Positions 1,682-60,276 are shown, counted from the stretch's first letter. The stretch: 64,000 bases of DNA from Trypanosoma brucei (GCA_000002445.1 CP000067.1:1-64000), one strand, 5' to 3'. A program made the numbers and translations. The notes: generated by a model from the letters alone, not told the origin.

Positions 1682-3120
1682 CTATGCATTGTTACCACCT
1701 CTATTGTTAACTCCGTTGTTATTGTTACCTCTTGCTTTCAATTCAACGTATAGTGCAGTAATGTGGTTACTAAGAGAAACTGAGAATTGACGCACCTCCT
1801 GTTCCCAAAACCTTTTTTCACCTTCATTATCTTGTCCATCTTCTCTGTTTGTCATGCTGCAAGGTTGTGGTTTCGTAATTTTTTCGCTATCAACCCTTTG
1901 AACATATATTATTTCCCATACCATATCATTGGAAAAATTGTCCCAACCTTGGAAGTAACTTCGCAAATACCTTTTCATCTTCAATAACCCTCCGACGCTG
2001 CAGGGATGTTTATCGGAAATTGTGAATTGTAGTCCCACAAAAGTCTTCTGGTTCTCAACAAAAAAGAACGCATCAACAACTGGGAAACTCCTTGATTGCG
2101 GCTTGTACAATTTCATGTATTGAATTTCAGCTCCAGCAACAATTGAAACATCCTTGGGAACCACAATCGAAGGACCAATGAGTCTTGGTTCTTGCAGCAC
2201 CTGCAGCACACTTTGTGGAATTTGATTCCTAGCAAATGAGAGGCCCTGCAACTCCCTTGCCAACTCAATTAGCGTATCCTCATGCGACAATGCTTCAATG
2301 CCACTCTTCTCAAACAGGTGGGCAGTGAGAGCGCGGTTAGACAGCAAAGCAGACATTGCAGCATATTTATTCAGTAACCAAGGTCTCAGAAAGTCTAAAA
2401 TAGCTTGTCCCGTGTAAGATGAAAGCGGTCTGCAGCGATACGTATCACTCAGAAGCTCCTCCTCCTTCACTCGAACAACCCTCACCAACTTGTGTGATGC
2501 TTTGTCTGTTTGCCACATAGCTGCGTTTTGGAAAATTTCTGCGTAATCATTCATATATGTATCATTCAATTTGTTAATGTATCCCCGAATTAGTGTCCAC
2601 TGACTGTCATACGAAACCAAATTACCTATATGACGGAGCAGTGGACCAACGAAAAGAATTCGACCTTGAATTTCTTGCCATTCTCTTTCAATTTTCTCTT
2701 TCGCAACTGGAGGACTCCAACCGTAAGCAGGAGCAATTTTCCCCCACCTCGATATGTGTATGGCTTCCAAATCCTTCAATGTATCACAGTTTACGTAAAT
2801 ATGTGAGGCGGTGTTTTGCTTGGACCATTCATGGAATTGTCTGACGTCTGGAGAGCTCAAAGCAATACCGGCACAACCAACAGGAGGTTTCACTGGAGCA
2901 GGATGATCCTTGTCCACGTCGAATATAAGGTATCCCTTGATATCCTCACCGCCACTCGATTCTCCGATTATCTGCTTAACAGCGGTGAATGCACTCTTAT
3001 AATTACTGTAAAACGTAACATATCCTGCTCGATCGCCTTTGGGTTTACGAAACACGTACGCCTCGCCCTCCACAACGTATATGATAATCTGAAGTTGACT
3101 CGCTTCATAATGCAGTAGTT

Positions 3121-3132: not shown

Positions 3133-3640
3133 TTTTTTTTTTTTTTTAGAATTTTCTTCGTGCCTTCGTGAGAGTTTCCCCCCACTGGCGCGGCCATCAG
3201 CCATCACCGTAGAGCCCTGAAATGCTATCGGTCTGGCGACTGTGGCAGAGTCTCCCTTTTTCATTCATCCTAATACACACCCTCTATAATTTTTGTTGTA
3301 TTTCCGCATATGAACGGAATACAGCAGATGGGGCGAGAAGCCTCCCACCCCGGACTCTCCAAAGGATGCCAATTAGCAATCCTTTTTTGGAGTTCCACAT
3401 CACCGGACAGCAGCATCTTAGTGCGGATGATACTGCTGATGGCACGCTGGCACGTGCCCAGGGACCGACAAATGAAAAACGGTGTCCCAGCAAGACGCTG
3501 CTGATCCCTGTGCTGTATGATGCCGTAGCCGGAGCACAGCAGTGTTCCCCATGAAAGGAACTCTGCTGGCTCTTGGCTTCCCCCGATGATACGGGGTACT
3601 GGACCCTGGCACCACGTTGAGGTGGCCGGCATCGCCAGGG
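3133..3640 (-). mobile_element. RIME: RIME non-LTR retroposon, full length (about 493 bp body plus 15 nt poly(A) at 3133..3147)
   Basis: The reverse complement of 3562..3640 reads CCCTGGCGATGCCGGCCACCTCAACGTGGTGCCAGGGTCCAGTACCCCGTATCATCGGGGGAAGCCAAGAGCCAGCAG. This is the conserved 5' 79-mer of ingi/RIME-type elements, recalled from memory. A poly(T) run on the plus strand at 3133..3147 is the poly(A) tail. The flanks are a 12 bp direct repeat. Confidence 0.85.
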
Positions 3641-3652
3641 TGTATAACAGTA
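3641..3652. repeat. Target-site duplication TGTATAACAGTA (right copy) of RIME #1
   Basis: Identical to 3121..3132 and directly abuts the RIME 5' end at 3640. Confidence 0.85.
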
Positions 3653-4715
3653 GGGATCCCACGGAAAAGGATTTACCAATACCAGGCGTACCAATAACAA
3701 CATGAAACATCGGATTGATAGCCACTTCACCCATAAGCCACTGGTTAAGCCGTTCCTCAACCTTATGCCACACCCTCAGTGTTTCCCTGCGGATATAAAC
3801 ATCACTATTAAAAACGTACCCCACTCCCTTCTTGTGATTAATATCATAATCATTTGGGTTCGCTTTACACGACGTGTATGGCCAACCCACTTGAGATGTG
3901 AGCACAGCAATCTCCAAGTTACCGTGACGAGGAAGTGGTTCGTTCATAGTTTTCGGAACGTGACTTACATCAACTTCCTCCTTTGTCCACATGCGCGGCG
4001 GTCTTCCATCGAACACTTTCAATCCAAGTGGCTCTTCATCACAGCCCGACATCACATAGCTCCATTTCGCATTGCAAATGGAATCATACAATCCTCTCAG
4101 TTCGCTACCATCAGCTGCTAGGACAGCTCGCTTTTCCGCTCTCTTGGCGGCTATCACTGCAGCATCCAACCTTCCCCTCGCCACGGGACCAACAAATTCC
4201 CTTATTTCCACTGTCCCCTTCTCCTCCCACTGACTGAGGGTGCTAATTTCCTTTTCGTCAAGATACCTTGCTTTCCGCTTCATTTCAGAGAATTGGTTAT
4301 ATAATTCTTTATATTCCTCAAACTCATCAAGCCCCCGTATCATTCCTAGAAGCCTTGCATCCAAAATATAATCCTCCGGGCTCTGAACAAAAATGGGCAT
4401 CCTAACATTTTCTGCCTCAGCCACCGCAAAAGTCCCGCCAACGAACTCCTGAATAAAGTCGTTCACTGTCATTTTACGCAGAACCTCATACCGTTGCAGC
4501 AATACATCTTCCAGCAGCACATCCCTCACCTTACTATCCATTGTCCAGTTGGGCCCCCCTTCAGTTCTCTGCCGTATTTGTGGAGGCTGAGCAGCAGCAG
4601 GCGGTGGCGGTACATTTTCATCCCGCGGTCTCCTCATGGGCCCTTCAATATTATCTGCCACTTGTTGGTTTGCATTATTTCCTTGTGGAGCTGCGGGACT
4701 ATTTGCTCTTGACAT

Positions 4716-13689: not shown

Positions 13690-16565
13690 ACGAAGCACAG
13701 CAAGCTCCACCACCTCCCCAATTACCTTTACGACGCCAACACTTTTCCTGTTGCTGTTAGTGTTACTTCAACTTTATCAAATATGTGTTCTTTTTAACGC
13801 AGATGATGGTGGGAGAGTTACAGTGAAGGCAATATCTCTGTTATACAGTCGAAAATGGAACCTACAAGTTATCAATGACGTGAATGCCGGTTTCAATGCC
13901 TCCCTGGTTGCTCGGAACTGGACGGTGGCACTCGGAGTGAATGTTGAAGTTGCCCGCTCTCCCTCATACGTCATCAATTTGGTCCAGTTTCTGAATGATT
14001 GCCCGAAGGCACTAAATGGCGATGACGCGAACAAGCTGTGCAATACATTAGAAGGGAACCAACTTGTTGGCTTCGGTTCCATGACTGAGTATCAACAGGG
14101 CATGAGGGATATCTGCCGCATCTTTGCTTCCTGCTCCTTGAGGCCACTGGCGAACTTATTACCCCAGTACGTTATGCGGTGAGTCACTTACGTGTGCCAA
14201 AGCAGGGTTTCATGTATCTTGATGGGCTCCCGGGAGGTAGTGAGGCATATAATCAGGCAGTGGATTTCATATAGCGCATGGGGTACAGTTTCTGTTGTGT
14301 TTTCACGGTGGAAGACAAAGCGGGTGGCCAAGGTGGATCACCTGAGGAATCCGACGCTGTATGGGATGACTTTGCTGGGGGAAATCCGCAGGCTGTGACT
14401 ATGTTTGCCGCCATGAAGCCTGATGCCAAAAAAATTCTCGTGAGGTTGGTGTCTGATCCGCGTACGGAAGATACGTTCGTGCTAACTCCGATCTTATTGC
14501 AGAAATCAATCGTGAGCATCTGGAAGGAGACATTGGAGGAAGCGAATGTTCCGTTTGTTCCCCATCGTGTGATTCAGACGGGGTCAAATCCTCTCGCTGA
14601 GGAAGATTATATCGATGCGGTAAAACGCTTTCAGACTGAAATGAGGAACTATTTGACAGAATACAGGGAGTGGAGTGACTTCAATGATGCGGATCACTTT
14701 CTAAAGAGTGACGCGGATGGGGAGCTGACGATCAATGGCTGGATTACTGGAGAGGTGTTGGCGCGGGCACTGCGTAGTCATGGCTGGATGAAAAATCGCA
14801 CAGCCGTCATTGAGTCGCCGTTACGTGATTGATGGCATCGTGATCGGTGATTTTGGAGGTGAGTGCGATAGCTTTACCACTGCAAATGATGCCACTTGCC
14901 GCTGCAACCGTGGCAGGAAGAACGTCTACATGAGGGAGATTGCTGAAAATTACCGCCTGCAACCGCTTGTTGGCAGGCATATTATGACAACTTCCTTACA
15001 GTGTTATATCGATCCCTCATTCCTATAGACACCACTCATCGGCCTCACCGTTGATATGGAAGATCACGAAGAGCTTCTGAGAGAGGTTCCACACAGTTTG
15101 AAACTGGTGTGTCCACCACGACCTCATCTGGGAAAGCTGGCGAGATGAACAGTTTCTTCCTTCAGAAGGTTGCCACGGATATGCAGAAGGTTTCCGACGG
15201 TCTCAACACATTGTGACGGGAAAGGATAGTCGCTGCTGTGTTCGGCATCGTGACAAAAGCGGTGCTCGGTCTGATATTCATTGACCCTATGACACCAATC
15301 CCCCATCTGAACAGTTTCAGCAGGAATGTGATCCACTTGTCCCTAACAATGGAACAACAGCTATGCATGTTAGCGAGCTCCCTCTCCAGCATTCGTGCTG
15401 ACTTCCACCAATCGCGTTGTAAGGGGCGGTGAGGCGTCCGCTTTCATTGATGCACTAAGAAAGACACTGCTCACATTTGGCTTGAACCTCAGCTCTACCG
15501 TTGTGTTGACTGCAGGGGACTCTGTTGGAGAGTATCTTTCGAAAAGTGGTAGCACTTTTATCATTGGACTTGCTGTTGATGGCATTGTGGCAATTGAAGA
15601 GCATCTACGTATCCGCAACAAGGCGCGCGTATTTGTCCAGTTCTCTGACGTTGCGCTGCTGTACAATGAGTTTGTGCAAGCCTTCGACAATAGCGATGGC
15701 ACCAAGCACCTTTTGCTCGCAACAAGTTTGCTTTGCTACCCAGACATCAACGCGACATCGTAGACTGTGCAACGGTTCCACGAGGCGGTACGTGAGGTGG
15801 AAAAGTGGACGCTGCTGTCGCTACTGGGTTTCGCCACGGGTAGACTAATACAAGAGGATCTGCAAAACATGGAAAGGGTAACGTCCGGCCTGCTGGTCGA
15901 CCTTTTCTTCAACCAAACAGTAATCACCGTTGATGGCATGCATTATATGGGCCGTACAAACATTACGATTGCATAACCAACGTTGTTGTTACCACTGATG
16001 ACTGCGTGACAAACTTCGGTGCTACGGATATAAGTCTGTGTGTGTGTGTGTGTGATCAGTGGCACGTGCGCTACGGTCAGATGCACCAATACTACAGAAT
16101 CCGATGTCGCCGTCGTTGGTGTCCGGTGTCCCCAACGGTAATGCCCTCAACCCCGCACAACTTGCTGGTGTGGTTGGTGACTCTTTATTCGTTGTGGCTC
16201 TCGCAATATGTCTAAGCTTGCTTGCGTGATTCCCTCTCCGCGGCACCCGTGATAACGACAGCGCGCCGAAGGAGCCAACGGACCCTGTGACACTAATATT
16301 TACTGACATTGAGAGCAGCACTGCGTTGTGGGCTGCACACCCTCACCTGATGCCTGATGCCGTTGCGACACATCACCGTCTGAGTCGTTCACTGATTGGG
16401 AGGTATAAGTGCTACGAGGTGAAAACTGTTGGGGATTTGTTCACAATAGTGAGCAAGAGTCCCTTCGCTGCCGTCCACCTCGCACAGAAACTGCAGCTGC
16501 GTTTCTTGCATCATTCTTTCCGAAGGGGCTGCACAATTTCTGACAGCGCCGAATGGACAAATGCA
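13690..16565 (+). pseudogene. GRESAG4: Receptor-type adenylate cyclase (GRESAG4/ESAG4 family) pseudogene: extracellular domain, TM segment and the first ~90 aa of the catalytic domain, with multiple frameshifts
   Basis: Translation of 16240..16540 gives RDNDSAPKEPTDPVTLIFTDIESSTALWAAHPHLMPDAVATHHRLSRSLIGRYKCYEVKTVGDLFTIVSKSPFAAVHLAQKLQLRFLHH. This is the hallmark start of the T. brucei adenylate cyclase catalytic domain (established family knowledge). It is preceded by a hydrophobic TM-like LLVWLVTLYSLWL at about 16150..16215. Upstream ORFs (13751.., 14278.., 14810.., 15395.., 15767..) sit in different frames and read as extracellular-domain pieces. The ORF stops at 16565, so the rest of the catalytic domain is absent. 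Confidence 0.75.
16037..16054. repeat. (TG)9 microsatellite
   Basis: gtgtgtgtgtgtgtgtg read directly; similar short (TG)n runs at 7640..7675 and (AT)n runs at 25070..25090. Confidence 0.9.
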
Positions 16566-18595: not shown

Positions 18596-20155
18596 ATGTT
18601 AGGATTACTGACCATAACACATTTTGGCATGCACCTCAATTACTTCCTTATAACACTTCCCCCCCCTCGTTTGATTCATCGCTTAGCTCTATTATTAAAA
18701 AAGAAAAAGCATTTCGTCAACACTCAGCACCTCAAGGAATCGGAAATGGGAACTACAATGTCAGGAAACCAAGGAAGAAAGCGACAGTGCAGCTCATCTC
18801 CTGAGCAGTCAGAAGCTTTAAAGGAATCATCAACTACTGGACAAAATAAACTCACCACCGTTACAATCACCGAAGAGACGCGTGACGCCAGTAATGATGA
18901 AACTGTGATATCATTACTGAATGAGCATGAGAAATTGATTAAACAAACGACACGGCTGGAAAGCAGTGTGAAGGCACTTAAATGTTTCATGAGTAATCTC
19001 ACAGCTATGAGTGGCGAAAGGCAAGGTGGTGTGTGTGATGGCACCGAATGCATACATAGAGTAACATTATATAATGCTGCTGATAATGCCTTCAGTGACG
19101 AAGGACTATGTGAAGGTGCTCTTTCCTCACTCTGTGGCCGTATTCAAGCTAAGAAATTAACCATTGCGCTATCAAAGGGTTGGAAATTTAACTCACGACA
19201 AGTCAGTAAGCTAAAGCAGTTAGAAGAGTTACGCATTGAATATCCGCGTGGAAAACTTGTGAATATGATATCTTTGAAGAGACTGCACATGTTGAAAAGG
19301 CTTTGTCTCAGGAGCAACAATATTGACAACAATGACGCCCGTCACTTATTCAATATTGGAACATTGGAAGAGTTGGCTATTACTGACACCATGCAACTGA
19401 CAAATATCAGAGGAATCTCTCGCTTGACTAACCTGATGTGTCTTGATTTAAATTCCACAAACATTGACGACAACTGTGTGAGGAGAATATGTGCATGTGT
19501 TAAACTGTCCAAATTGAGTGTATCCGAATGCAACAATATCACAGACGCGACACCAATTTCACAGCTTGAAGCACTGGAAGAGTTGAATCTAAACAGCTGT
19601 TACCACATAACGAAGGGAATAGGAACACTTGGCATGTTGTTACGATTGCGTATACTTGATTTGAGTGGTGTTCCTGTGGAAGATAATTGTCTGAAGGATT
19701 TGTGTGACTGTGGATCGCTTGAAAGGTTGAACATTTCTTATTGTATTCAGCTGAAAGATATCAATCCACTCTCCAATGCCACTGCTATTGAGGAATTGAA
19801 CCTTAACGGTTGTCGCCGAATCACACGGGGGATAGGCGTTGTGTGGGCATTACCAAAGCTCCGTGTATTGCACATGAAGGATGTGCACCTGAGTGAGCCA
19901 TCTCTCGATTCAGTTGGGACTGGTGGATCACTTGTAAAGGTCAGTCTTGATAACTGCGCAGGCTTTGGTGATATGACACTCTTATCCAGCATTGTTACAC
20001 TCGAGGAGCTGAATATTCAAAAATGTGCTGGCATCATTAGTGATGTGGGTTGCCTTGGTACACTACCATACCTGCGTGTGCTTAACATAAAGGAGGCACA
20101 CATCTTGTCCCTTGACTTTATTGGTATTGGTGCCTCGAAATCCCTTTACAGTTAA
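18596..20155 (+). CDS. LRRP: Leucine-rich repeat protein (ESAG8-like/LRRP family), N-terminal segment. It is probably the 5' part of one gene that continues in 20116..22941.
   Basis: Repeated about 24-aa LRR units with the recurring motif L..LEELNL..C..IT....LS.L. ATG codons occur at 18596, 18629 and 18746. A polypyrimidine tract at 18640..18700 suggests the real start may be the ATG at 18746 (MGTTMSGNQ...). Confidence 0.7.
   Translation: MLGLLTITHFGMHLNYFLITLPPPRLIHRLALLLKKKKHFVNTQHLKESEMGTTMSGNQGRKRQCSSSPEQSEALKESSTTGQNKLTTVTITEETRDASNDETVISLLNEHEKLIKQTTRLESSVKALKCFMSNLTAMSGERQGGVCDGTECIHRVTLYNAADNAFSDEGLCEGALSSLCGRIQAKKLTIALSKGWKFNSRQVSKLKQLEELRIEYPRGKLVNMISLKRLHMLKRLCLRSNNIDNNDARHLFNIGTLEELAITDTMQLTNIRGISRLTNLMCLDLNSTNIDDNCVRRICACVKLSKLSVSECNNITDATPISQLEALEELNLNSCYHITKGIGTLGMLLRLRILDLSGVPVEDNCLKDLCDCGSLERLNISYCIQLKDINPLSNATAIEELNLNGCRRITRGIGVVWALPKLRVLHMKDVHLSEPSLDSVGTGGSLVKVSLDNCAGFGDMTLLSSIVTLEELNIQKCAGIISDVGCLGTLPYLRVLNIKEAHILSLDFIGIGASKSLYS
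18640..18700 (+). promoter_or_regulatory. Polypyrimidine tract plus AG: candidate trans-splice acceptor region for the LRRP gene
   Basis: cttccttataacacttcccccccctcgtttgattc followed by AG dinucleotides, upstream of the ATG at 18746. Trypanosomatid mRNAs are trans-spliced downstream of polyY tracts (established knowledge). This is inference only. Confidence 0.25.
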
Positions 20156-22941
20156 CTCTGGAGAGTATCACGGGACTGAGTAATGTGGAAGCACTCGCCA
20201 ACATTTTAACTCTGGAAAAACTAAGCCTTCACGGCTGCACGGGTATTGACGCAGGAATTGGATGTCTTGGAAGACTGCCACAGCTTAAAATGTTGGACCT
20301 GTCTGGCACAAATACCGACAATGAGTCTCTCAGAAGTTTATGCCTATCGCAGACAATGGTGTCCCTCAACCTTTCCCATTGTTGGAAAATGACAAATGTG
20401 TCCCATATTTCAAGCCTCGAAGCATTGAATGAACTGAATCTGAGCAACTGTTTTGGAATAAATGCAGGATGGGAAGCATTTGAAAAACTTCAGCAGCTAC
20501 ATGTGGCAATCCTCTCGAATACACATATTACTGACAGAGACATATCCCATTTCAGCAAGTGCAAAAACCTTGTTACGCTTGATCTTTCTTTCTGCAATAA
20601 GTTACTTGATGTTACAACTCTCTCTAACATCACCACGCTTGAGGAGTTGAATCTTGATAGTTGTTCAAACATCAGAAAAGGGCTGAGCGTTCTTGGAGAG
20701 TTGCCACGGCTTTGTGTGTTGAACATAAAGGGTGTACAGTTGGAAGATTCAGTTATTGTTTCACTAGGGAATGGTAACTCATTTGTAAAGCTCAGTCTTG
20801 TGAATTGCAAAGGTTTTGGTGATGTCACGCCCCTCTCGAACCTTGTTACACTTGAGGAACTGAATCTCCACTACTGTGACAAATTAACCTCTGGAATGGG
20901 AACGCTGGGCAGGCTACTGCAGCTTCGTGTACTGGATTTGGGACGGACACAAGTTGATAATAATTCCCTTGAGAATATCTGCACAAGCTCAATCCCACTT
21001 GTGTCATTAAATCTTTCGCATTGCAAGAAAATAACATCTATTTCTACAATAGCTTCCCTTACAGCATTGGAGGAACTCAACATTGACAACTGCTGTAATG
21101 TAACATCCGGCTGGAATGTATTTGGTACACTTCACCAACTGCGTGTAGCCACACTGTCGAATACACGCATTAATGATGAAAACATACGACACGTTAGCGA
21201 GTGCAAGTCTTTGAATACACTCAACCTTGCGTTTTGCAAAGATATAACAGACGTCACAGCACTTTCTAAAATTACTATGCTTGAGGAGTTGAACCTTGAT
21301 TGCTGCCCTAACATCAGAAAAGGTATTGAAACTCTTGGAACGCTTCCCAAGGTACGTATCCTAAGCATGAAGGAATGTTACATGGGAGACGGATATGCGC
21401 AACAATGTTCCATCCTTGGGAATAGTAAGTTACTTGTGAAACTGAATCTTGAGAGGTCAATGGGATTCATATCTGTGAAAGCTCTCTCTAACATTGCGAC
21501 ACTGGAGGAGTTGGTACTTGATCATGCACAGGAAGTATGTTGCATACCGTCATTTTCCTGTCTACCGCGTCTTCGAGTGCTGAATCTGAAATATACAGAT
21601 ATTAATGGTGATGTAACTAAAAATATTTCCGAATCAAAATCGCTGCAGTCACTCAACTTATCACATTGCAAATGGGTAACCGATATATCAGTATTATCTT
21701 CCTTACCAACACTGGAGGAACTGAATCTCAACTGCTGCAATGGAATAAAAAAAGGTTGGGAGTCGCTCGGAAAGCTGCCTCTACTACGTGTAGCAATTCT
21801 ATCTGATACCAACATCACCGCTAAAGATATAGCTTGCCTTAGCAGTTGCAAAACACTTGTGAAACTGCAGTTTTTTTGGTGTGAGGAGTTGTCAGATGTT
21901 ACGGTGGTGTATGAGATTCAATCACTGGAGGAACTGATGGTCAGGAGCTGTTCAGACGGCCTCAAGGGACTGAATGCCCTTGGTACACTCCCACGGCTGC
22001 GTTTTTTGCTTCTGCGAAATTTGAAAGGTAGTGATATATCTGTTGAATCTATTGGGACGAGCAAATCTCTCGTGAGGCTTCATATTGAATTTTGCGAGAA
22101 GTTAACAGACGCAACACCCCTCTCCAACATCACGTCCCTTGAGGAATTGTCATTGCGGAAATGCGGTGATAGCCCGGAAGGAGTCGGAACACTTGGGAAA
22201 CTGCCACGGCTTAGATCGCTGGATCTGGATTTATCTGACATTAGCAATAGCGCACTTAATGATATTTTTCTGTCTCGGTCCATTACGTCACTTAACCTAA
22301 CCTCCAGTTGGAAACTAACAGACATATCTCATATATCAAACCTTACGGCACTGGAGGAATTGAATCTGAGCGGATGTTACCTCATAATTTCAGGCTGGGA
22401 AGCACTTAGCGAATTACCACGACTTCGTGTGCTCAACTTGGTATCTGTCAGAGTTACGACGCGTTACGGTGGATATTATATCAGCAGATGCAAATCCCTC
22501 GTCACACTGAATATTCAATTGAGTGATATGACCGATGCTTCATTTCTTGCTAATATCAAAACACTGGAGGAGTTGCATATAGGAGGATGCAAAGAGCTAA
22601 CGCAGGGGTTTAGTGCACTTTTCACTCTTCCGAGGTTACGCATTCTTGACTTGATTTGTTCTTTCATTACAGATGAAGATCTCAGGGAAATTCAACCACC
22701 CCATACCATTGAGGAGCTCAATCTTTCTTATTGCGAAAATATTAATGATATTACACCACTTGGGAGGATAAAATCAATTAAAAAATTGCATCTCCACCGG
22801 AGCTATGAAGAAAGGGGGCCCACACAAGGATTCAGAAGTCTTTTGGAATTGCCATGTCTTTCTTGGGTGGATCTCAAAAATGCTTCTGTCAGTTCTGATA
22901 TCCTGCGTGAACTGGGAAAAAGGAGGGTAAATATCCGTTAA
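20116..22941 (+). CDS. LRRP: Leucine-rich repeat protein, C-terminal about 940 codons. The frame opens at 20116 with no ATG; the track's M at 20185 is a GTG.
   Basis: Same LRR super-repeat as 18596..20155, for example VTPLSNLVTLEELNLHYCDKLTSGMGTLGRLLQLRVLDL repeated about 8 times. The frame-1 ORF overlaps the end of the frame-2 ORF across 20116..20155. Confidence 0.75.
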   Translation, partial: LYWYWCLEIPLQLTLESITGLSNVEALANILTLEKLSLHGCTGIDAGIGCLGRLPQLKMLDLSGTNTDNESLRSLCLSQTMVSLNLSHCWKMTNVSHISSLEALNELNLSNCFGINAGWEAFEKLQQLHVAILSNTHITDRDISHFSKCKNLVTLDLSFCNKLLDVTTLSNITTLEELNLDSCSNIRKGLSVLGELPRLCVLNIKGVQLEDSVIVSLGNGNSFVKLSLVNCKGFGDVTPLSNLVTLEELNLHYCDKLTSGMGTLGRLLQLRVLDLGRTQVDNNSLENICTSSIPLVSLNLSHCKKITSISTIASLTALEELNIDNCCNVTSGWNVFGTLHQLRVATLSNTRINDENIRHVSECKSLNTLNLAFCKDITDVTALSKITMLEELNLDCCPNIRKGIETLGTLPKVRILSMKECYMGDGYAQQCSILGNSKLLVKLNLERSMGFISVKALSNIATLEELVLDHAQEVCCIPSFSCLPRLRVLNLKYTDINGDVTKNISESKSLQSLNLSHCKWVTDISVLSSLPTLEELNLNCCNGIKKGWESLGKLPLLRVAILSDTNITAKDIACLSSCKTLVKLQFFWCEELSDVTVVYEIQSLEELMVRSCSDGLKGLNALGTLPRLRFLLLRNLKGSDISVESIGTSKSLVRLHIEFCEKLTDATPLSNITSLEELSLRKCGDSPEGVGTLGKLPRLRSLDLDLSDISNSALNDIFLSRSITSLNLTSSWKLTDISHISNLTALEELNLSGCYLIISGWEALSELPRLRVLNLVSVRVTTRYGGYYISRCKSLVTLNIQLSDMTDASFLANIKTLEELHIGGCKELTQGFSALFTLPRLRILDLICSFITDEDLREIQPPHTIEELNLSYCENINDITPLGRIKSIKKLHLHRSYEERGPTQGFRSLLELPCLSWVDLKNASVSSDILRELGKRRVNIR

Positions 22942-25900
22942 TATTTGATCCATTGCTTCACTTTGTATAATTTAATAACTTATTGCTGAGAACACGTTAC
23001 TAAATTTAACAGCCAGTTCGAGTGGTTCGCTAACTGTAGGCACCATTATTCGGACAGATACCAGTAACAATTCACATGGATGATATTGTATGTTACACTA
23101 TCTTAAATACGAGAAATACGAGGATTTCATTACAGTTATTTGAGTGCTTCGTATTTTACTAAGTCATACCAATCATATATTGTGAAGAATAAAGAACAGT
23201 TAGGAAGGTGTGTGCGTGTGTGTGTATATGCAAAAGGCTTTTTTCTCAGTGGAAACTTGTATTTTAGTTGCAAGCGTAGTAATTATTATATTACGCTCAT
23301 TTATACTACAGCCATATCAAATAAATATCTCATTTCCTGTATGTTTTTCTGTCTTTACAGCCACATACTCTCACCCAAATATCGAATGAAATATTACCGT
23401 TATTATTATTATTTCTATCGTTCTTATTGTTATTACGTGAAACACAACATTCACATTTAATTTTTACTCATAGCCACACCTGAAAAGTAAAAGCACTCAA
23501 CATTCTGCAGTACTGTATACCTGTCGATGATATGAGGGGGTGAAGTTTATATACCATTAAAGTATAGTGAATATATTTCATTATCCTTATTATTATTTGC
23601 TTTACTGAAAGAAATGACAGAGTTACTTTACAATAAATTATATCAGAGCAGCATCTTGACCACCAAGTTCTTACATGGGAGAGGATAATAAAACACATTA
23701 CGTGTCTCGTGATTCTTTTTTACACTTGCCACTGGTATATATCTATATTCTCAAACAGTGCGATTGAATATTCTCTTTTCATTAAAATATTATATTATAA
23801 CTTGTTGTATTTGTTTGGTTTTGTAATAACATAATTTATTTTATTACATTTCCTTTCAGAATTATTTGGGCCAAATATTTGTGAAGATGTCATACATTCC
23901 GAATACCCTTGCACAGCAAAGGGTTGTGTACCACATTAATTCATTAACATTTGTGCTACATGTGCATGGGAAAGTGTATTAAACATTTCACTGGTTCTGG
24001 GAAATATTATTTTCTTTCTTACAACATGATGCCTCAGAAGAACTGAAGGCGAGAGCAAATCCTTTCATTCATTTTATTTTCCTTTTCTCACCGTATCCGT
24101 ATATGTTTATGACTTTCCAGAAAACACTGCTGAGGTAAATTATGTATTCCTTCATATTTACTTTTTATTTGACAATAACAAGAAAAGGATTTCCTCCTCA
24201 CACACTTAAATTAATTAGACACTGCTGTTAGCTGATAAGTTATGGACAGCCGCACATTTAAGTTATACAAATCCACACCGATTCGAAATAGCAAAATATC
24301 AAATATTATGTATTTATTTGAGGAAAAAAAAAGAGACGAAAAGAAGCGCTGCATCTCAAGGGAGATGCATGTGAAATCGAAGAACAACTGTCATTTGAAT
24401 ATCATATCCCCAAATTGTTTTGATTACATTATTAGCAGTAAATGCTTACGGAACTTGGGAAGTGAATGACTACTGAAATTAAAAGCATGAGGACGCACTG
24501 CGATGGCACATGAGAGAAACATGGGTGGGATTTTTATATATTGGAAAGTGGAGTGGCTTTAAGGTGTTTTACATGATGTTTAGTTGGAGATTGAAATAGT
24601 TCAGGAAATAGTGAAAGACTGTTATGATACAGGAATCTTTTCGTTTACTTATTTCAAGCTCACTCCCGCGACGCACTATTTTCGGTTTGCATTGCAAGAA
24701 GTGGTATGATATATGCAACCGCTTATTTCTTATTTATTTATTTTTGCGAGTTTATATAAGTGTGGTTTGGTGACGTGGAAAATTTTCGCATATGGTTAAT
24801 GTCTTTACGACAAGCAAATGCTCTGCTCGAGCTATGGTATTGGAAGGTTAAATATAAAGTATATGTTTTATGAGTTATCAAATGCTGAATGCTTCAACTG
24901 ACTCGCTCTTTAAACAAAAACACTTTCTCAGCTTTTCCACTCTGAGCTAAAAATGTAGTTTAGTTTCTAAACAGCACGCCACATCTCATTCACCATCGGG
25001 TAAAGAGATATTTGTTGTATGGTCAACACGAAAGTGGAGAAGTGCAGAAAGTAGAAATAAAATAAAGAATATATATATATATATATCGAATTATGTTGGA
25101 ACTGCAGCTATCATTCAACCTAAGAGTAAAAGACACCTTTCCTTCTGTTGTGAGCCGCAACCATGCCGTGACGAAGTTACAAGTGGAAGGAGTTGATTCA
25201 AATCATTCATCACCTAATCTCTGTAATGTGAATATTTTTGTTTAGAGATATTCGTATGTTAATGAGAGACCACTATGCAGAGGGAAGAACAGCCGACGAC
25301 TGCAACCTAAAACCCGTAATATGCGGACTGTTATAAACTTTAATAGTTTCATTTAATTATGTAAAGATGGCATCAGCAGATTACACTTGTAAGCTGTTTG
25401 AAGTCAAAACAACGATAGACGGAAGGGAATGTGCAAGTGGTGATTTAAATTGTATGTTTATGAGAAATTTGTAGTGTGAATCAACTGTTGAAATATGTTG
25501 CGCGGCATTGACAGCAGATGTTTTTTTTTCATATTATTCTCCTTTTCTTTTTTTGCTTGTCTGTCGAACAATCTGAGGTTTAGTTGATATATTCCTGAGT
25601 TTCATCACATGTGTTTCTGTTTATATAATACCAATCGTTACAAACTAAATATCTGCAGTAAGTATATTAAAAACATACGATTTGTCACCACCTCTTGTTT
25701 AATTTCTCTTTATTCAAACGGCACTTTCTTTTAATCTTGTAAATAATGTTTTTATCGTTGTTTCATTTGTTTGCACACTTAATCCTCTGCGCACGCTGTT
25801 GTATTAATTTGCTTCTACACGCTCGCAAAATATATATATATATCATTTTGAAACAAATCGCGGTTGTAACTGATGTTTCTCCGGTTTGCATCGTATTATA

Positions 25901-34906: not shown

Positions 34907-36946
34907 CTATGCATTGTTACCACCTCTATTGTTAACTCCATTGTTATTGTTACCTCTTACTTGCAATTCAACGTATAGTGCAGTAATGTGGTTACTAAGA
35001 GAAACTGAGAATTGACGCACTTTCTCTCTCCAAAATCTTTCCTCAACCTTATTATTTTGTCCTTCACCTTCGATTGTCCCCTCACAACATTGTGGCTTCG
35101 TAATTTTTTCACTGTCAACCCTTTGGACATATATTATTTCCCATACCATATCATTGGAAAAATTGTCCCAATGTTTGAAGTAACTTCGCAAATACTTCTT
35201 CATCTTAAATAACCCACTGGTGCTGCAGTATTGTTTATCGGAAATTGTGAATTGTAGTCCCACAAAAGTCTTCTGGTTCTCAACAAAAAAAAACGCATCA
35301 ACAACTGGGAAATTTCCTGATTGCGGCTTGCACAAAATCATGTATTGAATTTCAGTTCCAGCTACAATTGGAACATCCTCAGGAACCACAATCGAAGGAC
35401 CAATGAGTCTTGGTTCTTGCAGCACCTGCAGCACACTTTGTGGAATTTGATCCTCAGAAAGTGAGAGGCCCCGTAACTCCTTTGCCAGCTCAATTAGTGC
35501 ATCCTCATGTGACAATACTTCAATGCCACTCTGCTTGAAACGATAAGCAGCAAGGGTACGGTTAGACAGCAGTTCAGATACTAAAGCAGACTTTTCCTGT
35601 ATAAAAGGTTTCAGTCGATCTGAAATAGCTTCCCCCGTGCAAGATGAAAGTGGCTTGCAGCGATACGTATCACACAGGAGAAAATCCTCTTCCTTCACTC
35701 GAACAACCATCACCAACTTGTGTGATGCTTCATGTGTTTCCCAAAAGGCTCGGTTTCGAATAACGGAACGAAAATACTCAGTATCTCCACGTTCAAGTTT
35801 CAAAATAGTATTTTGCATTGCTTGAGCACGCTTTTCGTACGAACGTAAATCAACAATGTGACAAAGCAGTGGACCAACGATACGAATGCGAGCTTGAATT
35901 TCTTGCCATTCTCTTTCAATTTTCTCTTTCGCATCTGAAGGACTCCACTTGTAAGCAGGAGCAATTTTCCCCCACCTCGATATGTGTATGGCTTCCAAAT
36001 CCTTCAATGTGTCACAGTTTATGTAAATATGTGTGGCGCCGTTTTGCTTGGACCATTCATGGAATTGTCTGGCGTCTGGAAAACTCAAAGCAATACCGGA
36101 AAAATCAACAGGTGGTTTCACTGGAGCATGATGGTCCTTGTCCACGACGAATATAAGGTATCCCTTGATATCCTCTGCGCCACATGAATCTCTGACTATA
36201 TGGTCAATATATGTTGAAGCTTGCTCATAATTACTGTAAAACGTAACATATCCTGCTCGACCGCCTTTGGGTTTATGAAACACATACGCCTTACCCCTCA
36301 CAACGTATATGATAATCTGAAGTTGACTCGATTCATAATGCAGTAGTTTGTATAACAGAAAGGGTGCTGTGGAAAACGATTTACCAATACCAGGTGTACC
36401 AATAAGAACATGAAACATCGGGTTGACAGTCACTTCACCCATAAGCCACTTGTTAAGCCGTTCCTCAACCTTATGCCACACCCTCAGTGTTTCCCTGCGG
36501 ATATAAACATCACTTTTAAAAACATACTCCACACCCTTCTTGTGATTGATATCATAATCTTTTTCTTGTGGTTGGAAAGACGTGTATGGCCAACCCACTT
36601 GAGATGTGAGCACAGCAATCTCCAAGTTACCGTGACGAGGAAGAGGTTCGTTCATAGTTTCCAGAGTGTGACTGACATCAACCTCCTCCTTCGTCCACAT
36701 GCGCGGTGGCCTTCCATCGAACACTTTCATTCCAAGTGGCTCTTCATTATAACCCGACATTACATAGCTCCACGTCGCATTATAAATGTAATCGTATAAT
36801 TTCTCTTCGAGAGACTTGCCCTTTCCGGTTTCTGATGGGTTCTCGTTTTCTCGGCTGGCTTGTCTCTTCATTGGGCGGTACGCACCATTCAACCATCCAT
36901 TTAAAATATTCCGAGTATCTCCTACACTACCGCCGTTCTGATTCAT
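34907..36946 (-). CDS. RHS: RHS (retrotransposon hot spot) protein, apparently intact (679 aa); type B N-terminus (MNQNGGS...) joined to a core close to that of the 1682..4715 copy
   Basis: Uninterrupted ORF with the P-loop GTPGIGKSFS followed by an intact, uninserted hot-spot 12-mer (tgtataacag at 36346..36355). The conserved C-terminus ...HITALYVELQVRGNNNNGVNNRGGNNA is shared with the 1682.. copy. Confidence 0.85.
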   Translation of the reverse strand: MNQNGGSVGDTRNILNGWLNGAYRPMKRQASRENENPSETGKGKSLEEKLYDYIYNATWSYVMSGYNEEPLGMKVFDGRPPRMWTKEEVDVSHTLETMNEPLPRHGNLEIAVLTSQVGWPYTSFQPQEKDYDINHKKGVEYVFKSDVYIRRETLRVWHKVEERLNKWLMGEVTVNPMFHVLIGTPGIGKSFSTAPFLLYKLLHYESSQLQIIIYVVRGKAYVFHKPKGGRAGYVTFYSNYEQASTYIDHIVRDSCGAEDIKGYLIFVVDKDHHAPVKPPVDFSGIALSFPDARQFHEWSKQNGATHIYINCDTLKDLEAIHISRWGKIAPAYKWSPSDAKEKIEREWQEIQARIRIVGPLLCHIVDLRSYEKRAQAMQNTILKLERGDTEYFRSVIRNRAFWETHEASHKLVMVVRVKEEDFLLCDTYRCKPLSSCTGEAISDRLKPFIQEKSALVSELLSNRTLAAYRFKQSGIEVLSHEDALIELAKELRGLSLSEDQIPQSVLQVLQEPRLIGPSIVVPEDVPIVAGTEIQYMILCKPQSGNFPVVDAFFFVENQKTFVGLQFTISDKQYCSTSGLFKMKKYLRSYFKHWDNFSNDMVWEIIYVQRVDSEKITKPQCCEGTIEGEGQNNKVEERFWREKVRQFSVSLSNHITALYVELQVRGNNNNGVNNRGGNNA

Positions 36947-49435: not shown

Positions 49436-51463
49436 TTACCTTCGGCCCGCAGCAGCCACCGCAAGCATTTTGATAACTATGTTATCCTCATACTGCACAT
49501 GGTACTGCTGCACATTGTTCTTCCAGAATCCCTTCACAAACTGGTGACTGCGGTGCTTTGCCTTACCCTGTGTAATTTCACACTTCTGCTCAGACCTCAT
49601 CGCTGTGGATTCGAAGTGCTGAACGTAAATGATTTCCCAGTGAAACATCTCAGTAATTTCCTCCAACTGCTCAACGGTAGCCTCATTCTGGTGACCCCCT
49701 CCCTCCGCACTTGGCAAGAGGGATTGTAACAAATGAATGAATTCGTCGGTTTTTGTGTCATGTCTGCTGGCAACAGTAAACTGCAACAACACAATAGTTT
49801 TCTTTCCTGTGGTTCCTGAAGCCTGTGCAGCCTCCTTGTCATCAACAATAAAGAATGCATCCGCTACGGGGTAGTTGGGAATGCACGGCACATATAATTC
49901 CACCGGAGCCCCCTCCGACTCAGCCCAGTTGATGTCACCTGGCACTGTGTTTGTTCGACCAACTTTGAGGAGGTCATCCCTTACGTGTTGCAAAATGCTT
50001 TTGCGTGTCCTCATGCGTCTGGCCCTTTCATTTGCTGGAAGTTTCGTTATTAAACTTACGAAGCAAGTTAACACTCTGGGGGAACACAAATATTTAATTG
50101 CATTCTCCTCAAAATAAAGCCCGATGGCAGATGCATTCCGCATCATACCAGTTGTCAGTGCCCACTCCTCAGCAATGCCGGAAAACACTACATTCAAAAT
50201 TCTTTTCTTTATAGATTCAGAATGCGCCACGCAGACATACGTGTCAAAGGAGTTTCCTTCTCGAGCTTTGATACGAACGATCTTCACGAGCTTATGTGAT
50301 GCATCATTGTCCCTCCATTCCCCACAGTTGTCCAGTACCTTAGTATATATTCCGTACTTGTTACCTGCTACGATACTCCCCAATTCCCCGTCCACTGCAG
50401 TAAGCTCCTGTCCATACATTACTTCGTCAAACACATAACGAAGTGAAGGTCCGACACGCTCCACACGGTTCTCATACATGTTCCACTTTTCCCTCAACTC
50501 AACATGCGTGGCTTGAGGAAACAGCTTGAGTCCCATACGTGAGAAGAAAGCCCGCATTTCACTCATTTCCCAGCAGTTAACAACAATAAAAGCGCCTTTA
50601 CGTTGCTTTTGCCAGCTGTCAAAATTTCTCAAATTGGGTGAACTGATCAAAATGCTTCCCCATTTTGGAGCCACATCTGCCGGTGGCTGCTCGCCTTTGT
50701 TGACGAAGTCATAAATAATATAACCACGTGTATTAGATGATATAACCTTCATAAACGTTATAGCCGCTTCTTTACTGTACTCCCTAACTCTGCCAACGCC
50801 ACCATTATCCGATTTTTCAAATATATATGCGGCTACACCACGGAAATACGCAACAACAGGCAACTCTTCCGCATCATAATGCAATAACTTGTAGAGGATA
50901 AAAGAACCCAAATTCTGAGATTTGCCAATCCCAGGATTACCAATGGCAACGTATGATCGTGGTAAATAAAGACATCCCGGTATAACACGCTGGGTACGCC
51001 ATAATTCAATTCCACTCCTTACAACATTCCATACGCGGAGCTCCTCTCTGCGAATGAATATGTCACTGTTACTTCCCCGGGCAAAGCCTGTATATGGCCA
51101 ACCCATTTCTGAGGTAAGAACCAACAGCTCAACTCCTTCCGTGCGTTCCGGCTTCTGTTCAAGAGTTTCCTCAATTTTGGGGACAACATTAAGTTCCTCA
51201 TCTTTCCACATCAAACCTTCATTGGGCATTCCATCAACCAACGTCATTCCCAATGGTTGAGTTCCATCGTCGATAATAATATAACTCCATTTCGCATTAT
51301 AGGTGGAATCGTATAATTTCTCTTCGAGAGACTTGCCCTCTCCGGTTTCTGATGGGTTCTCGTTTTCTCGGCTGGCTTGTCTCTTCATTGGGCGGTACGC
51401 ACCATTCAACCATCCATTTAAAACATTCCGAGTATCTCCCACACTACCGCCGTTCTGATTCAT
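49436..51463 (-). CDS. RHS: RHS protein, apparently intact (675 aa); type B N-terminus with a distinct core
   Basis: Uninterrupted ORF with P-loop IGNPGIGKSQNLGSFILYKLLHYDAEE. Its first 50 aa and about 440 bp upstream are nearly identical to the 34907..36946 copy. Confidence 0.85.
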   Translation of the reverse strand: MNQNGGSVGDTRNVLNGWLNGAYRPMKRQASRENENPSETGEGKSLEEKLYDSTYNAKWSYIIIDDGTQPLGMTLVDGMPNEGLMWKDEELNVVPKIEETLEQKPERTEGVELLVLTSEMGWPYTGFARGSNSDIFIRREELRVWNVVRSGIELWRTQRVIPGCLYLPRSYVAIGNPGIGKSQNLGSFILYKLLHYDAEELPVVAYFRGVAAYIFEKSDNGGVGRVREYSKEAAITFMKVISSNTRGYIIYDFVNKGEQPPADVAPKWGSILISSPNLRNFDSWQKQRKGAFIVVNCWEMSEMRAFFSRMGLKLFPQATHVELREKWNMYENRVERVGPSLRYVFDEVMYGQELTAVDGELGSIVAGNKYGIYTKVLDNCGEWRDNDASHKLVKIVRIKAREGNSFDTYVCVAHSESIKKRILNVVFSGIAEEWALTTGMMRNASAIGLYFEENAIKYLCSPRVLTCFVSLITKLPANERARRMRTRKSILQHVRDDLLKVGRTNTVPGDINWAESEGAPVELYVPCIPNYPVADAFFIVDDKEAAQASGTTGKKTIVLLQFTVASRHDTKTDEFIHLLQSLLPSAEGGGHQNEATVEQLEEITEMFHWEIIYVQHFESTAMRSEQKCEITQGKAKHRSHQFVKGFWKNNVQQYHVQYEDNIVIKMLAVAAAGRR

Positions 51464-51905: not shown

Positions 51906-54844
51906 TAAAGGTATTCATGCGCATGGTGAAGGATCTTTACATTAAGAAATAATACAAACAACTATCAGAACTTGCGCATAATCTCACATGAGCCGTCACT
52001 CGGAATGACGTTTCCATTACTTATTAACTTTGCAACAACAATTTTAATACATACTCTCACACTCCTAATCAGTACACAGTGTGCAAATGAAAGTACGAGA
52101 TATCAAAACATATACAATAATAATCGCCGTAAAAAGTAAAACCAATGAAAATAAAATCTTATACATCAAAGAGGAACCTCTCTCACCTGACGAACAAATG
52201 CTGCTCACTTTCTTTATTCTTTAAGTGATCCTGTGTTTTTTTTCTTGCGGCCATGGAACCATGAATACAAAGAACATATGAAGGCATGAAAGGTATTTGT
52301 TTTTGTTTTGGTATTGGAGCACCTTGCCATGCGTCTGATCTTGTGCCTTGGTGAAACTCAAAAGAAACGAAAGGCTCACGGAAGGGAACAAATATATTTG
52401 TGGGAATAACAATCCAATATTAGGCCTCTTTTAAGGAGTGTGCTGAGTGGAATAATGGTGAAAAAGAAGTATTGAAAATGTATGCTATATGGACAAATGC
52501 CTTACAATGTTTTCTCTCTATCTGAAACATATGGAATATATGGAATATATAAGGAACAAGAAACATAGGGAATATATGAAGAATAAGGAAATATATGATA
52601 TATTCTGAAGTGCCGGATGTGCTTGTGCGTGTCTTCGTATGTGTTCTCTGCTTTATATATCACTAAATATTTTACACATTTCATTTTACTTTGCGTATGC
52701 TAATAGCTTGTTTTTCCTTGCATCAATTCATGGAAATATCTATTAGAGAAATAATAATTTACTTTTTCTCTTCCTTTCCCGCTAATGTTTCACCGCCTAT
52801 TTTCATTCCTTATAAATACTGTAAATTTCTTTTGTTACTGTAACTATTTCCAAAAAAAATGTAATGGAGACACTTTAAGCATTACATATCATAATATCTC
52901 TAAACTCCTTCTATGTTATGTTAAGTTACAAATATTTTCATTCCCATTAATTTTATTCAGCAGAACATACAAAACACCCTCAAAAGTCCTTCCTTCCTTT
53001 CTTTTTCTTCAACATCATAATATACCTTGTGGAATATACAAATATATAATAACCATAAATGTGTTATATATCTTCACAACATCAGAAGCTATACAACAGA
53101 ATTGTGTTCCTCAAGAAGCAGTGGTTGTGTTTCCTTTTACTTTCTCTCAGAGTCAAACTAATTAATTAATTACTAATAACATCCTCCAAAGATATTGCTT
53201 CTATTTTCTTGGATCACTCAGCAGCGTAACACCGGAGTATTGAAATAAAGAGTCACAGTTCAAAGAAAATAAAACAGTAAAAAAAATAAACAGAGGCTCG
53301 CACCTTCACAATTGGTTGCATTTGGATATATCAAACGCATTTATACACTTGCATTCCTTGTGTTTCTTTTTTGGGGGAGGGTAAATGCAAAATGCAAAAT
53401 GTATCAAGTTGACGAGTAGAAGAAATACAACACTTGATATAATTTCACTTACATATAAGCTTTCGTTTCCCACTTTATTCTAATTCATAATATTTAGATA
53501 GCAATGTAATGGAGCATTCAGCCATAAACATTTTAACCATAAATATAGTAACTAATGTGTGAATGGTAACCCATGGTGATACATTCCATATGGAACAATA
53601 CCACATTGTTAAATATACGCATGGAATTAAAACTATAGCACTAAATTGAAAATGAAAAATTAGAAGAGAGAAAGATATGAATTATCAAAAGAGGCATATT
53701 CTTCACTAACATGCACTTGTTTCAATACAATCATAATTTCAAATTACTTTAAATGATAAGTGGCCCAATGTCCTGAAACGACACAATAACAATGATTTCA
53801 TTATAACAACTGTAAAATAATGATATGCAATAAAGTAAATAATATAAATAAATAAAAATACAGCAAGCACTGCAGAATATATTTTACTGCTATAACCATT
53901 TGCAAACAAATGAATAGCTTTGCTCATTGGAAGAAAATAATTAAATTCAAACTTCCTATGATTCTGCCAGTGTTGGTGAGCTACGTGTGGGACTCAAAAA
54001 AAACAAAAGTTTATTTTAAATAAATATAAAGAAAAGAAAAACTTCTCATGAAACCATAAGGGTACCCCTGTGAGTTATGTGCTGCTGTAAAACATAGTTA
54101 ACTTCACAACCCTCAAGAAAGAAAGAAATAATAAAAGTAAAATGTAAACAAAAATAAAGTTAAGATATATAATACACTTATGCTTAACTAAATGTAACGT
54201 GTCATACGTAAAGGTGATAAAATAATAATCACAATGTAATGTTATCAATGCTTTCCTTCGCAAACGAAAACTGTCACATCTCAATGTGTTCTTCCAAATT
54301 AATATAAAGGAACCAGCTGTGTTTGTATAATATTCTACAATGTCATTTGGCATTGTCCAATGCTCACTCAAAAAACTCCTTCGTTTTGTTGCGATGTAGC
54401 TGTTGACAGTGTTGTGCTCTTTTTCTTTTTTATTTTTTAACATACAACTATGGGTTTCCGTAATCCTCTCAATATTGCTGCAGTTCCCATCATTAAAAAA
54501 AAAACAAAAGAAATCCATCAAAATAGCGTAACTGGAGTATAAGATGTTGTAGAGAACAATGTATTTATTTTGAGTAATGGAACTCTGTGAGGTCGAAGAC
54601 AATAATCCGAAACGATTGAACCGAAACTTTCATTGCCCCATGCCTGTAAAATAATAATTTAATTGCTCAACGCATATTCTCATCCTGCAGTAAGTAGTTC
54701 AAACAATTTCGTACACACATGAAACACTGGAAGGAAAAGAAAACATATACATTGCATAAACCTTTACTAAATGAAAATACTATTTTTGGTATCGAGTTCA
54801 CCATGTGTTACAGAGCCACATTTCACTAACATGCTAAAGCATAA

Positions 54845-59500: not shown

Positions 59501-60276
59501 CCGTGTGAGTTATGTGCTGCTGTCAAACATAGTTAACTTCACAACCCTTAAGAAAGAGAGAAATAATAAAAGTAAAATGTAAACAAAAATAAAGGTAAGA
59601 TATATAATACACTTATGCTTAACTAAATGTAACATGTCATACGTAAAGGTGATAAAATAATAATCACAATGTAATGTTATCAATGCTTTCCTTCGCAAAC
59701 GAAAACTGTCACATCTCAATGTGTTCTTTCAAATTAATATAAAGGAACCAGCTGTGTTTGTATAATATTCTACAATGTCATTTGGCATTGTCCAATGCTC
59801 ACTCAAAAAACTCCTTCGTTTTGTTGCGATGTAGCTGTTGTCAGTTGTGCTCTTTTTTTATTTTATTTTTTAACATACAACTATGGGTTTCCGTAATCCT
59901 CTCAATATTGCTGCAGTTCCCATCATTAAAAAAAAACAAAAGAAATCCATCAAAATAGCGTAACTGGAGTATAAGATGTTGTAGAGAACAATGTATTTAT
60001 TTTGAGTAATGGAACTCTGTGAGGTCGAAGACAATAATCCTAAACGATTGAACCGAAACTTTCATTGCCCCATGCCTGTAAAATAATAATTTAATTGCTC
60101 AACGCATATTCTCATCCTGCAGTAAGTAGTTCAAACAATTTCGTACACACATGAAACACTGGAAGGAAAAGAAAACATATACATTGCATAAACCTTTACT
60201 AAATGAAAATACTATTTTTGGTATCGAGTTCACCATGTGTTACAGAGCCACATTTCACTAACATGCTAAAGCATAA

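What the first reader, a model, noticed from the sequence alone, without database searches (positions are those of the whole stretch)
20116..20158. The large LRR protein gene is split by a single-nucleotide frameshift in a T-run
ORF 18596..20155 (frame 2) ends ...IGIGASKSLYS*, while frame 1 is open from 20116 and reads ...IPLQLTLESITGLSNVEALANILTLEKLSLHGC. The repeat register of the downstream protein (cf. VSLGNGNSFVKLSLVNCKGFGDVTPLSNLVTLEELNLHYC) predicts ...GASKSL-L-QLTLESITG. That reading is restored by adding one T to the run at 20144..20146 (ctt tac ag becomes ctt tta cag). The result would be one ESAG8-like LRRP of about 1400 aa. It is either a very recent pseudogenisation or a homopolymer sequencing error.
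Basis: partly seen in the sequence, partly recalled or inferred. Interest (0 to 1): 0.5.

Follow-up and report, generated by a model that had tools for sequence, protein, structure and literature searches.

The report
Known frameshifted LRRP pseudogene, Tb927.4.160
The two adjacent open reading frames are one Trypanosoma brucei leucine-rich-repeat protein gene broken by the loss of a single T, and the reference genome already annotates it as the frameshifted pseudogene Tb927.4.160, so it is ordinary.

Summary
ORF 18596..20155 (frame 2) ends ...GIGASKSLYS*. Frame 1 is open from 20116 and runs to the stop at 22939..22941. Adding one T to the T-run restores a single ORF: 1448 aa from the ATG at 18596, or 1394 aa from the ATG at 18758.

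The repaired junction reads GIGASKSLLQLTLESITG. Seven related T. brucei-group LRRP sequences read SLL[QK]L[TN][LM]ES at this point without a gap, and the internal 71-aa repeat register carries across the junction.

The window is bases 1-64000 of T. brucei brucei TREU927 chromosome 4. Two RHS ORFs in it are exact matches to XP_844174.1 and XP_844175.1. [quoted passage not shown]

There is no second disabling lesion and no excess of private amino-acid changes, so the lesion is young, or, less likely, an error in the finished Sanger sequence. Nothing supports programmed frameshifting. "ESAG8-like" holds only loosely: the protein has LRRs but no RING motif.

The finding is already known and of low interest.

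The parts
18596..22942 (+). [quoted passage not shown]
   Evidence: Gene table in supplement file 5 of PMC3973304 gives Tb927_04_v4:18596-22942:+. The window shares chromosome 4 coordinates.
18596..20155 (+). 5' part in frame 2 (519 aa from the first ATG), with a premature TAA at 20153..20155. The likely true start is the ATG at 18746 or 18758 (MGTTMSGNQ / MSGNQ).
   Evidence: Paralogues P0001, P0002 and P0004 start at MSGNQ. This half is 91-95% identical to P0001-P0004.
20145..20147 (+). T3 run (context CCCTTTACAG). Inferred site of a one-base deletion from an ancestral T4 (CTT TTA CAG = L L Q).
   Evidence: The paralogues read KSLL[QK]L here. The site is inferred: a C inserted to give CTT CTA would produce the same peptide, and no paralogue DNA was available.
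20116..22941 (+). 3' part in frame 1, open from 20116, with the natural stop at 22939..22941. About 931 codons encode LRRs. The first in-frame ATG is at 20290.
   Evidence: This half is 88-91% identical to P0001-P0005. Pfam LRR_4, LRR_8 and related families match.

Best explanation
This is one member of the T. brucei LRRP1 family of ~1394-aa leucine-rich-repeat proteins. It lies in the RHS/LRRP/ESAG4-pseudogene region at the left end of TREU927 chromosome 4. It has lost one T from a TTTT run (CTT TTA CAG became CTT TAC AG), most likely by replication slippage. Translation from the normal start therefore leaves the frame after Leu463 (numbering from MSGNQ), reads Y-S, and stops at TAA 20153..20155. 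The product would be a truncated protein of ~465 aa: the N-terminal domain plus roughly the first third of the LRRs. The remaining ~930 LRR codons sit out of frame and would not be translated. The lesion is young, because it is the only disabling mutation in 4.2 kb and the repaired protein is no more divergent than its intact paralogues. Shown: the frameshift, its repair, the family reading at the junction, the identity of the locus and its existing annotation. Inferred: the slippage mechanism, the exact missing base, the youth of the lesion and the fate of the product.
For: Searches show the two frames, the 40-nt overlap and the one-T repair to a single ORF. Searches give the best hits as T. 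brucei LRRPs of 1393-1448 aa at 89-92% identity covering 96-98% of the repaired protein. Searches show seven related sequences (P0001-P0006, P0022) reading GI[GC]ASKSLL[QK]L[TN][LM]ES[IF]TGL without a gap. The repaired length from MSGNQ is 1394 aa, the same as P0001 and P0002. One search shows five internal repeat offsets (-71, +142, +213, +642, +713 aa) ranking among the best for both flanks at the same offset, so the register is preserved. One search counts 23 private substitutions in the window gene against 22-41 in the intact paralogues. One search finds window ORFs 34907-36946 and 49436-51463 identical to XP_844174.1 and XP_844175.1 of TREU927 on a contig of 1,590,432 bp. Searches show the published table listing Tb927.4.160 at 18596-22942:+ as 'LRRP, pseudogene ... 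frameshift', with the neighbouring annotated genes at the same coordinates as the window ORFs. Neither half is present in the protein database although annotated neighbours are, as expected for a locus annotated without a protein product.
Against: No reads or second assembly of this locus could be examined, so an error in the deposited sequence is not excluded. Having only one lesion in an otherwise undecayed gene fits an error equally well. Ribosome-profiling tables give the locus normal translational efficiencies (1.33 in bloodstream form, 2.49 in procyclic form). This shows reads assigned to the annotated CDS but does not separate the two halves, and the reads may come from ~90%-identical paralogues.
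Confidence: 0.75

Rival explanations
1. The missing T is a sequencing or assembly error in the reference, and the gene is intact in the organism.
For: The frameshift is the only defect in 4.2 kb. The repaired protein has no excess of private substitutions. The locus sits in a repeat-rich region with ~90%-identical paralogues on other chromosomes, where assembly is harder. Footprints and mRNA reads are assigned to the locus.
Against: From established knowledge, the source is the clone-based, finished Sanger reference of TREU927, where a miscount in a 3-4 base T-run is unusual. The curators explicitly labelled the locus 'frameshift' and kept it as a pseudogene in version 4 of the chromosome. Pseudogenes are common in this very window, for example RHS1 'interrupted' and RHS 'degenerate'.
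Confidence: 0.2
2. The frameshift is bypassed during expression, by programmed -1 ribosomal frameshifting or transcriptional slippage at the C3T3 run, so full-length LRRP is still made.
For: The shift needed, from frame 2 to frame 1, is a -1 shift. The sequence C CCT TTA resembles a slippery heptamer.
Against: The heptamer is in phase with the downstream frame, not the incoming one. In the incoming frame the codons are C|CTT|TAC, which do not fit X XXY YYZ (read directly from the sequence). The 101 nt downstream fold no better than shuffled sequence (-16.9 kcal/mol, z = +1.34, 189 of 200 shuffles fold at least as well). All paralogues encode the junction in a single frame, so no conserved recoding site exists.
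Confidence: 0.02
3. These are two separate functional genes: a 519-aa LRR protein and an ~883-aa LRR protein.
For: Both ORFs are long and free of stops. An in-frame ATG exists at 20290.
Against: No relative is organised as two genes. All full-length relatives are single proteins of 1393-1517 aa that align gaplessly across the junction. The ORFs overlap by 40 nt with no intergenic region for trans-splicing or polyadenylation signals. The split falls in the middle of an LRR unit. Neither product is in the annotated proteome.
Confidence: 0.03

Closest known systems
[quoted passage not shown]
   Same: It is the same locus. The annotated coordinates 18596-22942:+ equal the window coordinates, and the annotated defect is a frameshift.
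   Different: Nothing of substance. The annotated end is one base past the stop codon at 22939..22941.
Intact LRRP1-family paralogues of T. brucei: P0001 and P0004 (contig of 1,193,948 bp), P0003 (contig of 1,064,672 bp) and P0002 ('LRRP1')
   Same: They are 89-92% identical over the full length. P0001 and P0002 have the same 1394-aa length from MSGNQ. They share the N-terminal non-LRR region, the 71-aa LRR super-repeat and the junction sequence KSLLQL.
   Different: They are uninterrupted. The window copy lacks one T and terminates after 465 codons counted from MSGNQ.
ESAG8 (expression-site-associated gene 8)
   Same: Both are T. brucei-specific LRR proteins. The literature derives ESAG8 from chromosome-internal LRRP genes (PMC3605285).
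   Different: By the same paper, ESAG8 is defined by a RING motif plus a nuclear localisation signal and lies in telomeric VSG expression sites. Its named closest relatives are Tb927.1.3670 and Tb927.3.580. Here no RING was found by Pfam or by regex, no ESAG8 appeared among the hits, and the gene lies in an RHS array.

Membership tests
T. brucei LRRP1-type leucine-rich repeat proteins | Full-length similarity to annotated LRRP/LRRP1 proteins of ~1394 aa | tested here: met
   89-92% identity over 96-98% of the repaired protein to P0001-P0004. The repaired length from MSGNQ is 1394 aa.
T. brucei LRRP1-type leucine-rich repeat proteins | Tandem leucine-rich repeats over most of the protein | tested here: met
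   Pfam LRR_4 at 3.8e-57, plus LRR_8 and other LRR families. Internal repeats occur at multiples of ~71 aa.
Frameshift pseudogene (unitary lesion) | The reading frame is interrupted relative to all intact relatives, and a single-base change restores it | tested here: met
   The reference annotation says 'pseudogene ... frameshift'.
Frameshift pseudogene (unitary lesion) | The lesion is present in the organism's DNA rather than only in the deposited sequence | not testable with these tools
   No reads, traces or second TREU927 assembly were available. No orthologue at >92% identity exists in the protein database.
ESAG8 | RING zinc-finger motif (diagnostic of ESAG8 according to PMC3605285) | tested here: not met
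   No RING family in Pfam at E<=0.001. No match to the C3HC4 regex.
ESAG8 | Location in a telomeric VSG expression site | tested here: not met
   The neighbours are RHS genes and pseudogenes, hypothetical genes and an adenylate-cyclase fragment. The window was not screened specifically for VSG genes or 70-bp repeats.
Programmed -1 ribosomal frameshift site | X XXY YYZ slippery heptamer in phase with the incoming frame | tested here: not met
   The incoming-frame codons are C|CTT|TAC. The C CCT TTA heptamer is in phase with the outgoing frame (sequence read directly).
Programmed -1 ribosomal frameshift site | Stable stimulatory structure a few nucleotides downstream | tested here: not met
   Region 20150-20250 has an MFE of -16.9 kcal/mol against a shuffle mean of -21.2, z = +1.34.

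The most novel reading that the evidence does not exclude
The locus might still be expressed in a useful form. One route is occasional -1 slippage at the CCCTTTA run giving full-length LRRP. The other is a truncated ~465-aa N-terminal LRRP with its own function. The normal-looking ribosome-footprint density assigned to Tb927.4.160 hints at this.
Probability: 0.03. Interest if true: 0.4.

Novelty: already known. Interest (0 to 1): 0.04.

Why it matters
It matters little. The result shows that the first-stage reader can find and correctly repair a single-base frameshift from raw sequence. The locus itself is an already annotated pseudogene in a region known for gene decay. The only open point is whether the missing T is real or an error in the reference. 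That affects the count of intact LRRP1 copies in TREU927 and nothing broader.

Tried and rejected
- Exact-sequence look-ups of the 519-aa ORF, of an RHS ORF, and of P0001 and P0003 in the contig index all returned nothing. That tool does not cover these trypanosome records, so no paralogue DNA could be fetched. No codon-level comparison or dN/dS was therefore possible.
- The chromosome I and chromosome II papers were requested by DOI and by guessed PMC ids and are not held.
- A full-text search for 'Tb927.4.160' found no paper. The annotation came from a supplementary gene table instead.
- A second protein search with the N-terminal 281 aa looked for ESAG8 or an orthologue from another strain. 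It returned only T. b. equiperdum LRRP fragments and weak LRR hits, with no ESAG8.
- Programmed frameshifting was considered and rejected.
- Kinetoplastid U-insertion RNA editing was considered and rejected. By established knowledge it acts on mitochondrial maxicircle transcripts, whereas this is a nuclear chromosome 4 locus.
- A two-base insertion was considered instead of a one-base deletion and rejected. The one-base repair already gives a gapless alignment with the same length as P0001 and P0002.

Full report
**Observation.** The frame-2 ORF 18596..20155 (519 aa) ends ...LDFIGIGASKSLYS followed by TAA at 20153..20155. Frame 1 has a TGA at 20113..20115, opens at 20116 (LYWYWCLEIPLQLTLESITGLSNVEALANILTLEKLSLHGC...) and runs to the stop at 22939..22941. 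The two frames overlap by 40 nt. The local sequence is AAA TCC CTT TAC AGT TAA. The T-run is 20145..20147, preceded by CCC at 20142..20144.

**Repair.** Inserting one T into the run gives CTT TTA CAG TTA ACT and a single ORF of 1448 aa from the ATG at 18596. Read from the ATG at 18758 (MSGNQ...) it is 1394 aa. Any single-base insertion between 20113 and 20154 reopens the frame. Only an insertion at the T-run gives KSLLQL. A C giving CTT CTA would encode the same peptide, so the identity of the missing base is inferred from parsimony, not shown.

**Is it one gene?** A search with the repaired protein returned T. brucei LRRPs as the top hits:
- P0001: 1394 aa, 92% identity.
- P0002: 'LRRP1', 1394 aa, 92%.
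- P0003: 1448 aa, 89%.
- P0004: 1393 aa, 90%.
- P0005: T. b. gambiense 'LRRP, pseudogene', 85%.
- P0006: 74%.

Each covers 96-98% of the query. All six, plus a T. b. equiperdum fragment (P0022), read GI[GC]ASKSLL[QK]L[TN][LM]ES[IF]TGLSNVEALANILTLEKLSL across the junction without a gap.

Within the protein, the 25 residues left and right of the junction both find their best ungapped internal matches at the same offsets: -71, +142, +213, +642 and +713 aa. The ~71-aa LRR super-repeat is therefore in register across the repaired site. Pfam confirms LRRs throughout. Only one LRRP copy lies in the window. The lesion is thus a net one-base deletion within a single LRRP1-family gene.

**Where the window comes from.** Exact-sequence look-up showed that window ORFs 34907..36946 and 49436..51463 are identical to XP_844174.1 and XP_844175.1. 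These are RHS proteins of T. brucei brucei TREU927 on a contig of 1,590,432 bp. A gene table in the supplement of a ribosome-profiling paper (PMC3973304, file 5) lists the following entries:
- Tb927.4.100 at Tb927_04_v4:1682-3133:-.
- Tb927.4.110 at 3639-4715:-.
- Tb927.4.250 at 49436-51463:-.

The window is therefore chromosome 4, bases 1-64000, and the finding is an existing annotation. This also explains why neither half, nor the repaired protein, appears in the protein database although annotated neighbours do.

**Age of the lesion and real-versus-error.** The frameshift is the only disabling change in ~4.2 kb, where random sequence of this composition would carry about 85 stops per 1394 codons. 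Among the five closest sequences the window gene has 23 private substitutions, against 22, 29, 41 and 29 for the intact paralogues. There is no sign of prolonged relaxed constraint. This fits a recent deletion, and it fits a sequence error equally well.

I favour a real lesion at about 0.75 against 0.2, for three reasons:
- By established knowledge, the source is a finished, clone-based Sanger reference.
- The curators flagged the locus explicitly as a frameshift.
- The surrounding window is full of decayed genes.

Reads were not available, so this point stays open.

**Consequences (inferred).** Translation from the normal start would leave the frame after Leu463 and stop two codons later, giving a truncated protein of ~465 aa. 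The first in-frame ATG of the downstream part is at 20290. The overlap leaves no intergenic space for separate mRNA processing, so independent expression of the 3' part is unlikely. The ribosome-profiling table gives the locus translational efficiencies of 1.33 (bloodstream form) and 2.49 (procyclic form). These values are for the whole annotated CDS and may include reads from ~90%-identical paralogues, so they do not show read-through.

**Rivals rejected.**
- Programmed -1 frameshifting. The CCCTTTA heptamer is in phase with the outgoing frame, not the incoming one. The downstream 101 nt fold worse than shuffles (z = +1.34). All paralogues encode the site in one frame.
- Two separate genes. 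No relative is organised that way, and the split falls inside an LRR unit.
- U-insertion editing. This is a mitochondrial process and the locus is nuclear.

**Relation to ESAG8.** The literature places ESAG8 closest to Tb927.1.3670 and Tb927.3.580, which carry the RING and NLS motifs diagnostic of ESAG8 (PMC3605285). The window protein has no RING by Pfam or by regex, and no ESAG8 sequence appeared in either protein search. "ESAG8-like" therefore holds only in the loose sense of a T. brucei LRR protein. The precise family is LRRP1.

**Verdict.** The feature is already known as Tb927.4.160 and is of low interest.

Noticed in passing
window 3133..3650 (- strand): A ~500-bp RIME-type retroelement splits an RHS1 gene into ORFs 1682..3073 and 3270..4715. 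On the minus strand it starts CCCTGGCGATGCCGGCCACCTCAACGTGG, ends in a poly(A) run, and is flanked by a 12-bp target-site duplication TACTGTTATACA. The annotation calls Tb927.4.100 and Tb927.4.110 'RHS1, interrupted'.
   Followed up: partly
window 52637..63803: A tandem duplication with a ~5432-5438-bp period and 92-100% identity between copies. Each copy carries a 565-aa RHS ORF (54845..56542 and 60277..61974), and a third, more diverged copy begins near 63504.
   Followed up: partly
window 14278..14832 (+): A 184-aa ORF matches only the periplasmic-binding-protein-like domain of receptor adenylate cyclases (PF25495, 2.4e-28), so it looks like an ESAG4/GRESAG4-type fragment. It lies upstream of the LRRP on the same strand, which from memory recalls the ESAG4-ESAG8 order in bloodstream expression sites.
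   Followed up: no
window 18596..18757 (+): The first 54 codons of the annotated ORF (MLGLLTITHFGMHLNYFLITLPPPRLIHRLALLLKKKKHF...) are probably 5' UTR rather than coding. P0001, P0002 and P0004 start at MSGNQ (18758 here), P0006 starts at MGTTMSGNQ (18746 here), and only P0003 and P0005 are annotated with a similar extension.
   Followed up: partly
P0022 (T. b. equiperdum protein): A 392-aa protein named 'paraflagellar rod component' by its source is an internal fragment of an LRRP1-family protein and spans the same junction (KSLLKLNMES). The name looks like a misannotation. P0021 (243 aa) is another LRRP N-terminal fragment from the same assembly.
   Followed up: no
window 18596..22942: The annotated end of Tb927.4.160 (22942) is one base past the stop codon (22939..22941). 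This makes the annotated span 4347 nt, a multiple of three, despite the missing base.
   Followed up: no
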